In this document: positions 55,201 through 58,200 of the stretch, piece by piece
How positions within the stretch are numbered: position 1 is the first letter of the stretch
How the letters are laid out: each line of letters starts with the position of its first letter
Assembly: GCF_000026545.1 (NCBI RefSeq)
Contig: NC_011601.1
Source: Escherichia coli O127:H6 str. E2348/69
GTDB taxonomy: Bacteria; Pseudomonadota; Gammaproteobacteria; Enterobacterales; Enterobacteriaceae
Direction: 5' to 3' (one strand)
DNA length: 64,000 nucleotides
Made by a program: the position numbers

Positions 55201-58200
55201 ATCCAGCCGGACCTGATCTACACCTCGGAAGAAGCCGATGCGCCACAGTATATGGAACATCTGGGGATCGAAACGGTGCTGGTCGATCCGAAACGCACCT
55301 TTATGAGTATCAGCGGTGCGCAGATCCGCGAAAACCCGTTCCGCTACTGGGAATATATTCCCACCGAAGTGAAGCCGTTCTTTGTGCGTACCGTGGCGAT
55401 CCTTGGCGGCGAGTCGAGCGGTAAATCCACCCTGGTAAACAAACTTGCTAATATCTTCAACACTACCAGTGCATGGGAATATGGTCGCGATTATGTCTTT
55501 TCACACCTTGGCGGTGATGAGATCGCATTGCAGTATTCCGACTACGATAAAATCGCGCTGGGACACGCTCAATACATTGATTTTGCAGTGAAATATGCCA
55601 ATAAAGTGGCGTTTATCGACACTGATTTTGTCACTACCCAGGCGTTCTGCAAAAAGTACGAAGGGCGGGAGCATCCGTTCGTGCAGGCGCTGATCGATGA
55701 ATACCGTTTCGATCTGGTGATCCTGCTGGAGAACAACACGCCGTGGGTGGCGGATGGTTTACGCAGCCTCGGCAGTTCGGTGGATCGCAAAGAGTTCCAG
55801 AACTTGCTGGTGGAGATGCTGGAAGAGAACAATATCGAATTTGTGCGGGTTGAAGAAGACGATTATGACAGCCGTTTCCTGCGCTGCGTGGAGCTGGTGC
55901 GGGAGATGATGGGGGAGCAAAGATAATCATCTTTATAAGATGTTGAGTGGGATTACTGATTCAAAAGTGTACTTAGTACTCCATTTTGGTGTACAATGTA
56001 CCTGCCAGGGAGGGGTAATGGGTAAGGCGATAATATTTATAGAGACGCCAATGTTTACGCGTCAGATCAAGCAGATTGCAACCGATGATGAATTAAAGGA
56101 ATTACAAAAAGAACTCATCGGAACTCCCGATAAAGGTGATCTCATTCAGCAGACTGGTGGATTGCGTAAAGTCCGAATGGCTGCGGGTTCACAGGGAAAA
56201 AGTGGCAGTGTCAGAATAATTTACTTTCTGGCGACGGAAGAGATTATTTATTTGATTATGGCCTATCCGAAAAATGCCAAAGATAGTCTGACAGATACGG
56301 AAAAAGCTCAACTAAAGAAGTTGACGAAACTGCTCAAAGGCGAGATATAAAATGAGTTTTTTTGATGAGTTGAAAACCTCTCTGGAAGAGGCTGTCGAGA
56401 TTAAACAAGGTTTAAAAGAACCTGCACGGGTGACCCGCTACGAAATTGCGGATGTTAAAGCTATTCGTGAGCAACTCAACGTTTCGCAAAGTGAGATGGC
56501 AAAAGCTCTGGGAACCAGTGTGGATACCATTAAAAGCTGGGAATCGAAGCGAAGAAATCCTACGGGATTGGCTGCAAAAGTACTTGCCACAATTAAAGAA
56601 AATCCTGCCTTTTTCCGGGAACTTGCCTCCCATTAATCATTTAACTATTACCGGATGCGATGCTGGCGCGCCGCATCCGGCATTTTACGCATTACTTCGC
56701 AATACGCTTGTACTTGATACGCTTCGGCTCCAGCGCGTCTGCGCCCAGCGTGCGTTTCTTGTACTCTTCGTACTCGGTAAAGTTACCTTCAAAGAACTCA
56801 ACTTTACCTTCATCCTGGTAATCCAGAATGTGTGTGGCGATACGGTCGAGGAACCAACGGTCGTGCGAGATAACCATCGCGCAGCCTGGGAACTCCAGCA
56901 GGGCGTTTTCCAGCGCACGCAGGGTTTCGATATCCAGGTCGTTGGTCGGTTCGTCGAGCAGCAGCATGTTGCCGCCAACCTGCAGCAGCTTCGCCAGATG
57001 CAGACGACCACGCTCACCACCGGAGAGTTCGCCAACGCGTTTACCCTGATCAACCCCTTTAAAGTTAAAGCGGCCAACGTAGGCGCGGCTTGGCATCTCG
57101 GTGTTACCGATCTTCATGATATCCAGCCCGCCGGAAACTTCTTCCCAAACGGTTTTGCTGTTATCCATTGAGTCACGGAACTGATCGACAGATGCCAGTT
57201 TCACCGTTTCACCTAAAGTGATGGTGCCGCTGTCTGGCTGTTCCTGACCAGAGATCATACGGAACAGGGTTGATTTACCCGCGCCGTTCGGACCGATGAT
57301 CCCGACGATCGCCCCTTTCGGGATCGAGAAGCTCAGATCATCAATCAGCAGGCGATCGCCGTAAGATTTACGCAGGTTGCTGACTTCCAGCACTTTATCG
57401 CCCAGACGCGGTCCAGGCGGAATAAACAGTTCGTTGGTTTCGTTACGTTTCTGATATTCGGTGCTGTTCAGCTCTTCAAAGCGCGCCAGACGTGCTTTAC
57501 CTTTCGACTGACGGCCTTTAGTTCCCTGACGTACCCACTCCAGCTCTTTCTCGATCGACTTACGACGCGCTGCTTCTTGTGAAGCTTCCTGCGCCAGACG
57601 CTGATCTTTCTGCTCTAGCCAGGAGGAGTAGTTACCTTCCCACGGAATACCTTCACCGCGGTCAAGTTCGAGGATCCAGCCTGCAACGTTATCGAGGAAG
57701 TAACGGTCGTGGGTAATCGCCACCACGGTACCCTCGAAGTCGTGCAGGAAGCGTTCCAGCCACGCTACGGATTCGGCATCCAGGTGGTTGGTCGGTTCGT
57801 CGAGCAGCAGCATGTCTGGTTTTTCCAGCAGCAGGCGGCACAACGCCACGCGACGACGCTCACCACCGGAGAGGTTAGCGATTTTCGCGTCCCAGTCCGG
57901 CAGACGCAGCGCATCCGCCGCACGCTCCAGCTGAACGTTCAGGTTGTGACCGTCGTGAGCCTGAATGATCTCTTCCAGACGGCCTTGTTCAGCGGCCAGC
58001 TTGTCAAAATCGGCATCCGGATCGGCGTACAGCGCATACACTTCATCCAGGCGTTTCAGGGCGTTAACCACTTCAGAAACCGCTTCTTCAATGGACTCAC
58101 GCACGGTGTGTTCCGGGTTCAGCTGCGGTTCCTGCGGCAGATAACCAATCTTGATGTCTGGCTGCGGACGCGCTTCACCTTCGATGTCTTTATCAATGCC

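What the first reader, a model, noticed from the sequence alone, without database searches (positions are those of the whole stretch)
55960..56017. Palindrome-rich putative operator/promoter upstream of the higB-like gene
An 11-bp perfect palindrome GTACTTAGTAC (55969-55979) is followed by further GTAC motifs overlapping a TGnTACAAT extended -10-like element (55989-55998), ~20 bp before the toxin start. This is the kind of site an HTH antitoxin would bind for autoregulation.
Basis: seen in the sequence. Interest (0 to 1): 0.25.

Follow-up and report, generated by a model that had tools for sequence, protein, structure and literature searches.

The report
Twin GTAC operators in toxin–antitoxin promoter
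Two 11-bp GTAC-N3-GTAC palindromes on the -35 and -10 positions upstream of a HigB2-like toxin / NadS antitoxin operon in E. coli E2348/69 are very probably the antitoxin's operator sites, because the same motif precedes this operon in about 70 other species. This is ordinary toxin-antitoxin autoregulation, although I found no published description of the motif.

Summary
GTACTTAGTAC (55969-55979) is a 5+1+5 palindrome. The "further GTAC motifs" form a second one, GTACAATGTAC (55991-56001), centred 22 bp downstream. These are the only two GTACN3GTAC sites in the 64-kb window. TACAAT (55992-55997) lies inside the second box, but the TG is directly adjacent to it, so it is not a TGn extended -10.

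The downstream genes are a RelE/HigB2-type toxin (56018-56350) and a NadS-family HTH antitoxin (56352-56636). They form a cassette between nadR and ettA that is present in about 12% of complete E. coli genomes.

In 80 NadS loci from other species, GTACN3GTAC is enriched about 300-fold just upstream of the operon. It occurs in 36 of 39 unrelated upstream sequence contexts and follows nadS when the toxin is lost or separated. More distant antitoxins with different recognition helices carry different palindromes at the same place.

The best explanation is that NadS dimers bind both boxes and occlude a promoter whose -10, and weak -35, lie inside the boxes. The geometry resembles MqsA operators (ACCT-N3-AGGT), not the footprinted V. 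cholerae HigA2 operator (TGTACGC-N5-GCGTACA). Binding and promoter activity are inferred, not tested. This is a new member of a known kind and of modest interest.

The parts
55928..55942 (.). Small inverted repeat CATCTT-TAT-AAGATG, just after the nadR stop codon (55924-55926) and at the left junction of the inserted cassette. Function unknown.
   Evidence: Read from the sequence. The cassette junction at 55927 comes from the alignment of E. coli alleles.
55968..55973 (+). Candidate -35 hexamer TGTACT (3 of 6 matches to TTGACA, 18-bp spacer). It overlaps the first palindrome.
   Evidence: Simple sigma-70 scoring. It falls below the threshold of the promoter scan.
55969..55979 (.). Operator box O1: GTACTTAGTAC (GTAC-N3-GTAC palindrome). 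With flanks it reads aGT-GTAC-TTA-GTAC-TCC (55966-55982).
   Evidence: The distal box is conserved 21-22 bp upstream of the proximal box in 11 of the loci that have two perfect boxes.
55991..56001 (.). Operator box O2: GTACAATGTAC (GTAC-N3-GTAC palindrome). With flanks it reads GGT-GTAC-AAT-GTAC-CTG (55988-56004).
   Evidence: It matches the family consensus rGGT-GTAC-WAT-GTAC-nYY.
55992..55997 (+). Candidate -10 hexamer TACAAT (5 of 6 matches to TATAAT), embedded in O2. Predicted transcription start near 56004.
   Evidence: The central triplet of the proximal box is biased towards TAT or AAT across the family.
56009..56013 (+). Shine-Dalgarno sequence GGAGG for the toxin gene.
   Evidence: Read from the sequence. 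A similar GGAG motif precedes the start codon in most related loci.
56018..56350 (+). Toxin gene, 110 aa, RelE/HigB2 type.
   Evidence: Pfam PF06296, 40.2 bits against a cutoff of 27. V. cholerae HigB2 structures match at E=8e-17. RefSeq uses the same start.
56352..56636 (+). nadS antitoxin gene, 94 aa. The N-terminal part is presumed to bind the toxin and the C-terminal part is an XRE-type HTH. This is the presumed repressor that binds O1 and O2.
   Evidence: NCBIfam NadS NF041265, 182.6 bits against a cutoff of 60. A family profile matches HigA2 at E=1.6e-8 over residues 3-92.
56651..56680 (.). GC-rich hairpin CCGGATGCG-N12-CGCATCCGG between the converging nadS and ettA genes. It is a likely shared terminator and resembles a REP element.

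Best explanation
The segment 55966-56004 is the promoter-operator of a mobile toxin-first toxin-antitoxin operon (HigB2-like toxin, NadS antitoxin).

The -10 hexamer (TACAAT) lies inside palindrome O2. The weak -35 (TGTACT, 18-bp spacer) lies inside palindrome O1. I infer that NadS dimerises through its C-terminal HTH domain. One dimer would bind each GTAC-N3-GTAC box, which is effectively a palindrome of up to 17 bp, GGTGTAC-N3-GTACnYY. The box centres are 22 bp apart, about two helical turns, so the two dimers would sit on the same face of the DNA. Together they would block sigma-70 RNA polymerase and give negative autoregulation.

What is shown: the sequence anatomy, the protein family assignments, the family-wide conservation and positioning of the motif, and its covariation with the recognition helix.

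What is inferred: binding by NadS, the stoichiometry, any cooperativity, the transcription start near 56004, and how the toxin alters repression. In the A. baumannii relative the toxin acts as a co-repressor. In MqsRA it destabilises binding.
For: 1. Anatomy. There are two perfect 11-bp palindromes, the only two in 64 kb. TACAAT lies inside O2 and a GGAGG Shine-Dalgarno plus ATG follow 8-17 nt downstream.

2. The downstream genes are a PF06296 toxin and a NadS-family HTH protein homologous to V. cholerae HigB2 and HigA2.

3. Conservation. In 81 loci (E. coli plus 80 other species), 68 have at least one perfect box within 70 nt upstream of the toxin or nadS start. That is 81 boxes in 10.6 kb against 10 in 388 kb, a 297-fold enrichment. 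Seven of the 10 'outside' boxes carry the GGT flank and belong to decayed operons or a second nadS copy.

4. Independence. The upstream regions fall into 39 unrelated sequence clusters. Thirty-six carry the box, and it is the top-ranked 4-N3-4 pattern. Only the Escherichia loci lie next to nadR and ettA.

5. The box tracks nadS. In 8 loci it sits 36 nt upstream of nadS, in the gap between toxin and nadS. It also survives in loci where the toxin is deleted.

6. Flanks that were not imposed by the search are conserved: G at -2 in 68 of 69, T at -1 in 61 of 69, and a pyrimidine at +12 in 69 of 69.

7. Promoter overlap. In 35 of 60 loci the best sigma-70 match uses the box's TACnnT as its -10. In other loci the box supplies the -35 or sits at +1.

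8. Held-out check. Plasmid copies from E. coli, Pectobacterium and V. parahaemolyticus also carry the box.

9. Covariation. Antitoxins with different recognition helices have different palindromes at the same position:
- SSSLIQS: TCGTAC-N3-GTACGA
- SSSLVQS: TCCTAC-N3-GTAGGA
- SPSLVEA: YCTTAC-N3-GTAAGA
- SxRTLxN: TRTACKC-N5-GMGTAYA. This last type matches the footprinted V. cholerae operator.

10. The NadS helix GTSVDTIKSWESKRRNP is almost invariant across the family.

11. Precedent. HigA2 of V. cholerae and HigA2Ab of A. baumannii repress their own promoters. MqsA binds two ACCT-N3-AGGT palindromes upstream of mqsR.
Against: - There is no binding, reporter or transcription-start data for this locus or for any close NadS homologue.
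- The consensus promoter scan called no promoter here. The -35 matches only 3 of 6 with an 18-bp spacer, and the TG is not in the extended -10 position.
- Read-through from nadR is possible, because no terminator lies between nadR and the toxin gene.
- GTAC half-sites only 7 bp apart are unusually close for an HTH dimer. MqsA is the only precedent I could cite.
- Three of the four HigA2 base-contact residues differ in NadS (R68 to D58, E71 to K61, N72 to S62). Specificity therefore cannot be transferred from the solved complex.
- Forty-three of 60 loci have only one box, so the second box is not essential to the family.
- One E. coli strain carries a SNP in O1.
- Thirteen of 81 loci have no box within 70 nt upstream of either gene. 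Nine have none within 450 nt upstream of nadS. Most of these have lost the upstream region or the toxin, but three orphan nadS genes (L007, L081, L082) sit in other contexts.
Confidence: 0.8

Rival explanations
1. The boxes are promoter elements only. Their conservation reflects sigma-70 -10 and -35 function, and no repressor binds them.
For: TACAAT or TACTAT inside the proximal box is a good -10, and the central triplet is biased towards TAT or AAT. The distal box TGTACA matches 4 of 6 positions of the -35 consensus.
Against: A -10 needs only TAnnnT. It does not explain the second GTAC immediately downstream or the dyad symmetry. It also does not explain why the same palindrome is kept when it sits at -35 or at +1 rather than at -10. 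Relatives with a different recognition helix have a different palindrome next to an ordinary TATAAT.
Confidence: 0.06
2. The boxes form an RNA or DNA hairpin, such as a nadR terminator or a regulatory structure in the 5' leader of the toxin mRNA.
For: Adjacent palindromes can pair with each other. The predicted RNA fold of 55960-56020 has an energy of -16.6 kcal/mol.
Against: The z-score is only -1.0, and 31 of 200 shuffles fold at least as well. Arms of 5 bp around one base cannot form a hairpin on their own. No T-run follows, and the terminator scan found nothing here. Most related loci have a single box. The predicted transcription start lies downstream of both boxes.
Confidence: 0.03
3. 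The palindromes are recognised by something other than NadS: a host factor, a restriction-modification enzyme (GTAC is the RsaI-type site), or a recombinase that moves the cassette.
For: The boxes lie within 75 bp of the cassette's left junction at 55927. The cassette is clearly mobile, occurring on 589 plasmids and in many chromosomal contexts.
Against: The motif travels with nadS across hosts from Enterobacterales to Methylococcales. It keeps a fixed distance of 16-42 nt to a start codon. In one subfamily it lies inside the operon, directly upstream of nadS. It also covaries with the antitoxin helix. None of this is expected for a host factor or an attachment site.
Confidence: 0.04
4. The operator is bound productively only by the toxin-antitoxin complex, not by free NadS. 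Alternatively, only O2 is functional and O1 is a redundant relic.
For: In A. baumannii the HigBA2 complex represses more strongly than the antitoxin alone. Most family members have one box. One E. coli strain carries a SNP in O1.
Against: Boxes are retained upstream of orphan nadS genes that have no toxin, which argues that NadS alone uses them. The 21-22 bp spacing of the two boxes recurs in 11 loci with two perfect boxes. Five more loci have a near-perfect second box at exactly +21, whereas shuffles give a second box with 2 or fewer mismatches in under 5% of cases.
Confidence: 0.07

Closest known systems
Vibrio cholerae higBA2 operator and HigA2 repressor (PMC11006873; PDB 8a0w, 8a0x)
   Same: The proteins are homologous: the toxin matches at E=8e-17 and the antitoxin profile at E=1.6e-8 over nearly its full length. 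The operon is toxin-first. The operator is palindromic, overlaps the -10 and is bound by the dimeric C-terminal HTH domain. Both operators contain TGTAC.
   Different: The V. cholerae operon has a single 7-N5-7 site, TGTACGC-N5-GCGTACA. Here there are two 4-N3-4 sites. Of the base-contact residues R68, E71, N72 and R77, only the last is kept; NadS has D58, K61, S62 and R67. Aligned by distance from the dyad, the shared GTAC is offset by 3 bp per half-site, so it is probably not the same contact.
E. coli mqsRA promoter and MqsA (ACCT-N3-AGGT palindromes)
   Same: The operon is toxin-first. There are two identical-type 4-N3-4 palindromes upstream of the toxin gene, confirmed in K-12 at a 32-bp spacing. 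The spacer sequence is reported not to matter for binding. The NadS HTH domain aligns with MqsA residues 76-130.
   Different: The half-site is GTAC, not ACCT/AGGT. NadS lacks the N-terminal zinc domain of MqsA and scores below the MqsA family cutoffs. The box spacing is 22 bp, not 32 bp. MqsA N97 and R101 correspond to NadS D58 and S62.
Acinetobacter baumannii higBA2Ab on plasmid pAB120 (PMC5906591)
   Same: Acinetobacter plasmid antitoxins of this kind are annotated as NadS family. The operon is toxin-first, and autorepression by the antitoxin was shown with reporter fusions. I did not confirm that the plasmid loci I fetched (L094, L095) are the pAB120 module itself.
   Different: The Acinetobacter plasmid antitoxins are only about 37% identical to NadS. 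Their recognition helix is of the V. cholerae type (SARTLQN), and the upstream palindrome in L094 and L095 is TATACGC-N5-ACGTACT, not GTAC-N3-GTAC.

Membership tests
NadS family (NCBIfam NF041265) | Whole-protein score above the curated cutoff | tested here: met
   182.6 bits against a cutoff of 60, covering residues 1-94 of 94. RefSeq annotates the gene as nadS.
HigBA2-type toxin-antitoxin module (V. cholerae prototype) | Toxin gene first, with a PF06296 RelE/HigB2-type toxin | tested here: met
   Gene order is toxin 56018-56350, then nadS 56352-56636. PF06296 scores 40.2 bits against a cutoff of 27. HigB2 chains match at E=8e-17.
HigBA2-type toxin-antitoxin module (V. cholerae prototype) | Antitoxin homologous to HigA2 over both the N-terminal toxin-binding region and the C-terminal HTH | tested here: met
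   The family profile matches 5j9i and 5jaa over query residues 3-92 at E=1.6e-8. Disorder of the N-terminal region was not tested.
HigBA2-type toxin-antitoxin module (V. cholerae prototype) | Operator of the form TGTACGC-N5-GCGTACA, with contact residues R68, E71, N72 and R77 | tested here: not met
   The boxes are GTAC-N3-GTAC. The aligned residues are D58, K61, S62 and R67.
MqsA family antitoxin | N-terminal zinc-binding domain plus C-terminal HTH, scoring above the family cutoff | tested here: not met
   PF15731 scores 20.5 against a cutoff of 30, and TIGR03830 scores 38 against 61.8. Only the C-terminal part aligns, and there are no CxxC motifs in the 94 aa.
MqsA-type operator architecture | A 4-bp inverted repeat with a 3-bp spacer, present in one or two copies upstream of a toxin-first operon | tested here: met
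   The geometry is identical. The half-site sequence differs: GTAC against ACCT/AGGT.
Sigma-70 promoter | A -10 with at least 4 of 6 matches, including A at position 2 and T at position 6 | tested here: met
   TACAAT at 55992-55997 matches 5 of 6.
Sigma-70 promoter | A -35 with at least 4 of 6 matches at a 16-18 bp spacing, or a TGn extended -10 | tested here: not met
   The best -35 is TGTACT, 3 of 6 with an 18-bp spacer. The scan reports no promoter here. The TG abuts the hexamer.
Autoregulatory toxin-antitoxin operator | The site co-occurs with the cognate regulator across unrelated contexts and covaries with its recognition helix | tested here: met
Autoregulatory toxin-antitoxin operator | Physical binding by the antitoxin and repression of transcription | not testable with these tools
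   This needs EMSA or footprinting and reporter assays.

The most novel reading that the evidence does not exclude
NadS-family antitoxins use a compact GTAC-N3-GTAC operator that is at the same time the -10 hexamer (TACWAT). The cassette therefore carries a self-contained, self-repressed promoter wherever it lands.

Two further readings follow. First, within the HigA2/NadS superfamily the operator has switched between N3 and N5 spacer geometries while the recognition helix diversified. This would give a natural series of orthogonal repressor-operator pairs. Second, the helix and the box are nearly identical between chromosomal copies and small mobilisable Col-type plasmids. Chromosomal NadS, and perhaps the truncated nadS fragment that most E. 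coli carry, could therefore cross-repress or neutralise incoming plasmid copies, acting as an anti-addiction module.
Probability: 0.3. Interest if true: 0.45.

Novelty: new member of a known kind. Interest (0 to 1): 0.3.

Why it matters
The result gives a specific, testable operator motif, rGGT-GTAC-WAT-GTAC-nYY. The antitoxin family that would use it is widespread, found in at least 80 species here and on 589 plasmids, but I found no operator described for it. E. coli researchers get exact bases to mutate. The motif helps fix the true toxin start codon at 56018. The helix-to-palindrome table across the HigA2/NadS superfamily could guide specificity studies or the design of orthogonal repressors. 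It also predicts regulatory cross-talk between chromosomal and plasmid copies. It does not change the general picture of how type II toxin-antitoxin operons are autoregulated.

Tried and rejected
- Extended -10 (TGn): rejected. The TG is adjacent to TACAAT.
- RNA hairpin or terminator: rejected. The z-score is -1.0 and there is no T-run.
- V. cholerae-type 7-N5-7 operator at this locus: absent. It is found only in relatives with the SxRTLxN helix.
- Functional link to nadR, as the name NadS suggests: rejected. Only the Escherichia loci have nadR and ettA next to the cassette.
- Published operator for NadS or relE-yiaG modules: searches found only catalogue-level mentions. One lists the module as TA30, parE-3/yiaG-2, in PMC7232551. 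Another describes relE-yiaG modules in PMC11980606.
- yiaG upstream region in K-12: no comparable palindrome seen by eye.
- Phage collection: only 6 distant hits, not informative.
- The repeat finder did not report the 5-bp-arm palindromes because they fall below its seed length.
- Not attempted: structure prediction of NadS, because a monomer model would not address DNA binding; and a whole-genome scan of E2348/69 for further boxes, because only the window was available.
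Full report
**Where the window comes from.** The window is 100% identical to the chromosome of E. 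coli E2348/69 across the query. The local gene order is as follows:
- radA, then nadR (54673-55926, + strand)
- a 110-aa toxin (56018-56350, + strand)
- the 94-aa nadS gene (56352-56636, + strand)
- ettA, converging on the - strand (56692-58359)

The toxin is a PF06296 RelE/HigB2-type protein, scoring 40.2 bits against a cutoff of 27. It matches V. cholerae HigB2 structures at E=8e-17. The second gene product is a NadS-family XRE-type HTH protein, scoring 182.6 bits against a cutoff of 60. It is homologous to the V. cholerae antitoxin HigA2: E=2e-6 for the single sequence, and E=1.6e-8 over residues 3-92 for a family profile.

**Checking the observation.** GTACTTAGTAC lies at 55969-55979 and is a palindrome of 5-bp arms around one central base. 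The "further GTAC motifs" make up a second perfect palindrome of the same form, GTACAATGTAC, at 55991-56001. The two centres are 22 bp apart. TACAAT (55992-55997, 5 of 6 matches to TATAAT) sits inside the second palindrome. The sequence reads GGTGTACAAT, so the TG abuts the hexamer and this is not a TGn extended -10. The best -35 is TGTACT (55968-55973), matching 3 of 6 with an 18-bp spacer. It lies inside the first palindrome. The consensus scan calls no promoter here. GGAGG (56009-56013) and the ATG at 56018 follow. GTACNNNGTAC occurs only twice in the 64-kb window, both times here, against 0.32 expected.

**The cassette in E. coli.** About 12% of complete E. coli genomes carry the full module between nadR and ettA: 673 of 5426 for the whole module and 672 of 5426 for the promoter segment. 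Of the four alleles I aligned, two retain only the last ~30 nt of the toxin gene plus a 5' fragment of nadS running into a REP element, and one has nothing at all. In the remnant alleles the deletion starts right after the nadR stop codon, so it removes the palindromes together with most of the toxin gene. Among five sampled strains that carry the cassette, most SNPs fall outside the boxes. One strain has GTACTTAGcAC in O1. Another has an IS element inserted about 5 bp upstream of O1.

**Comparative test.** A scan of one genome per species returned 80 loci encoding NadS at 69-98% identity. The hosts range from Enterobacterales to Alteromonadales, Oceanospirillales and Methylococcales. Only the Escherichia loci lie next to nadR and ettA, so the genomic contexts are independent.

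The 100 nt upstream of the toxin start is unalignable between most loci, yet nearly all of these regions contain GTACN3GTAC 16-42 nt before the start codon. The counts are:
- 81 boxes in the 10.6 kb lying within 70 nt upstream of a toxin or nadS start
- 10 boxes in the other 388 kb, a 297-fold enrichment
- 7 of those 10 carry the GGT flank and belong to decayed operons or a second nadS copy

The upstream regions fall into 39 clusters that share no sequence outside the box. Thirty-six of them carry it, and it is the top-ranked 4-N3-4 pattern. In the remaining three clusters (seven loci), plus one further locus with no detectable toxin, the box sits 36 nt upstream of nadS, in a spacer of roughly 55-95 bp between the toxin and nadS genes. 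Loci where the toxin has been deleted keep the box in front of nadS. The box therefore follows the antitoxin gene, not the toxin gene.

Flanking positions that my search did not impose are also conserved: G at -2 in 68 of 69 sequences, T at -1 in 61 of 69, and a pyrimidine at +12 in 69 of 69. The consensus is rGGT-GTAC-WAT-GTAC-nYY. The invariance of the GTAC positions in that table is by construction and carries no weight.

Three plasmid copies served as a held-out check: an E. coli Col plasmid, a Pectobacterium plasmid and a V. parahaemolyticus plasmid. All three carry the box.

**Relation to the promoter.**
- In 35 of 60 loci the best simple sigma-70 match uses the box's TACnnT as its -10.
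- The central triplet of the proximal box is TAT in 34 of 72 cases and ends in T in 55 of 69 unique sequences.
- In other loci the box supplies the -35 (TGTACA, 17-bp spacer).
- In Photorhabdus and Xenorhabdus the box starts 7 nt after a TAGAAT -10.

The element always overlaps the core promoter, although the part it overlaps varies. A repressor site explains that pattern better than a pure promoter element does.

Twelve loci have two perfect boxes 19-22 bp apart. Five more have a second box with two or fewer mismatches at exactly +21, whereas shuffles reach two or fewer mismatches in under 5% of cases. The remaining 43 have one box. E. coli belongs to the two-box minority.

**Covariation with the recognition helix.** The NadS helix GTSVDTIKSWESKRRNP is almost invariant. 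More distant relatives on plasmids and viral contigs have different helices and different palindromes at the same place:

| Recognition helix | Loci | Palindrome |
|---|---|---|
| SYDLVKS | L098 | GTAC-N3-GTAC, two copies |
| SSSLIQS | L103, L105 | TCGTAC-N3-GTACGA, two copies |
| SSSLVQS | L092 | TCCTAC-N3-GTAGGA |
| SPSLVEA | L093, L097, L099, L100, L102, L104 | YCTTAC-N3-GTAAGA |
| SxRTLxN | Acinetobacter, Francisella, L109, L115 | TRTACKC-N5-GMGTAYA |

The last type matches the operator footprinted and crystallised with V. cholerae HigA2, TGTACGC-N5-GCGTACA. The published HigA2 contact residues R68, E71, N72 and R77 align with NadS D58, K61, S62 and R67. MqsA N97 and R101 align with D58 and S62. 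The positions that read DNA in two solved relatives are thus fixed within the NadS family and different from those relatives, which fits a distinct operator.

**Mechanism.** I infer that NadS dimers bind O1 and O2 on the same DNA face and exclude RNA polymerase from a promoter built into the boxes. The predicted transcription start is near 56004, leaving a leader of about 14 nt.

The operator geometry (4-N3-4, two copies, toxin-first operon) is that of MqsA. I confirmed two ACCT-N3-AGGT sites 32 bp apart upstream of mqsR in K-12. By homology, however, the proteins belong with HigBA2. When the operators are aligned by distance from the dyad, the GTAC shared with the V. cholerae operator is offset by 3 bp per half-site. 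It is probably coincidental.

How the toxin modulates repression is unknown. In A. baumannii it is a co-repressor. In MqsRA the complex does not bind the promoter. In V. cholerae the antitoxin's disordered N-terminal region contributes to DNA binding.

**Rivals.**
- RNA structure: the z-score is -1.0, there is no T-run, and the terminator scan found nothing at the site.
- Promoter-only: it does not explain the dyad symmetry, the variable placement or the covariation.
- Host factor or attachment site: it does not explain linkage to nadS across hosts, or the position inside the operon in one subfamily.

**Novelty.** The module has been catalogued as parE-3/yiaG-2 (TA30) in the nadR-ettA gap and under relE-yiaG modules. 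I found no description of its operator in the searchable literature. It is a new member of a well-known kind, the autoregulated toxin-antitoxin promoter, with a family-wide motif defined here. Interest is modest.

Noticed in passing
L132:2049-2200 (K-12 MG1655, nadR-ettA gap); also L002 and L003: K-12 and the other remnant alleles examined keep a remnant: the last ~30 nt of the toxin gene plus about 46 codons of nadS, which is the presumed toxin-binding N-terminus without the HTH. It runs into a REP element. It has no box or promoter of its own and starts 35 nt after the nadR stop. A PIRT-seq paper (PMC12350097) reports that this nadS is expressed. It might still neutralise incoming plasmid toxins.
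   Followed up: partly
L046, L047, L049, L052, L053, L059, L062, L065 (about 36 nt upstream of nadS at 2501): In this Enterobacter/Lelliottia/Trabulsiella subfamily, nadS is separated from the toxin by a spacer (apparent 55-95 nt gap). In L052 no toxin was detected. The spacer carries the box (AGGT-GTACTATGTAC-YCC) and its own Shine-Dalgarno sequence. The toxin's own upstream region has no box, which suggests a separate nadS promoter and operator.
   Followed up: partly
window 55940-56017: A mechanical ORF starts at ATG 55940 (136 aa) and reads through both palindromes. Conservation, the Shine-Dalgarno sequence and RefSeq all support the start at 56018. The 'heterogeneous, disordered N-terminal extensions' reported for RelE toxins paired with YiaG-like antitoxins (PMC11980606) could partly be start-codon miscalls of this sort.
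   Followed up: no
L088:563-1663 (E. coli Z1323HEC0355): An IS element (integrase-core transposase) is inserted about 5 bp upstream of O1. It replaces the native upstream sequence but leaves both boxes intact.
   Followed up: no
L087 (E. coli CT282), equivalent to window 55977: A single strain carries a T-to-C change inside O1 (GTACTTAGcAC). Other sampled SNPs fall in the spacer between the boxes (55987) or between the Shine-Dalgarno sequence and the ATG (56016).
   Followed up: no
L020, L024, L055: The three loci whose NadS has E instead of D at position 58 all have a perfect distal box but a degenerate or missing proximal box, for example ATACTATGTAG in L020. The upstream regions of L020 and L024 look similar, so the sample is small.
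   Followed up: no
L089, L090 (Col(Ye4449) mobilisable plasmids); NadS-like genes occur on 589 plasmids. Small Col-type plasmids carry a toxin-nadS module with the same DTIKSWE recognition helix and the same GTACTATGTAC or GTACAATGTAC box as the chromosomal copy. Regulatory cross-talk between plasmid and chromosome is therefore predicted.
   Followed up: partly
window 55928-55942: A short AT-rich inverted repeat, CATCTT-TAT-AAGATG, lies immediately after the nadR stop codon, at the left edge of the cassette. Its first 10 bases survive in the deletion allele of Escherichia sp. L005. Its function is unknown.
   Followed up: no
L076:2114-2131 (Paraglaciecola arctica): Three GTAC motifs occur in a 7-bp register (GTACAGTGTACAGTGTAC), giving two overlapping boxes instead of two boxes 21 bp apart.
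   Followed up: no
L006, L014, L067, L080: In these loci the toxin has an internal deletion, but the box(es), the first codons of the toxin gene and an intact nadS are kept. This is the reverse of the E. coli decay route, which removes the promoter and toxin together.
   Followed up: partly
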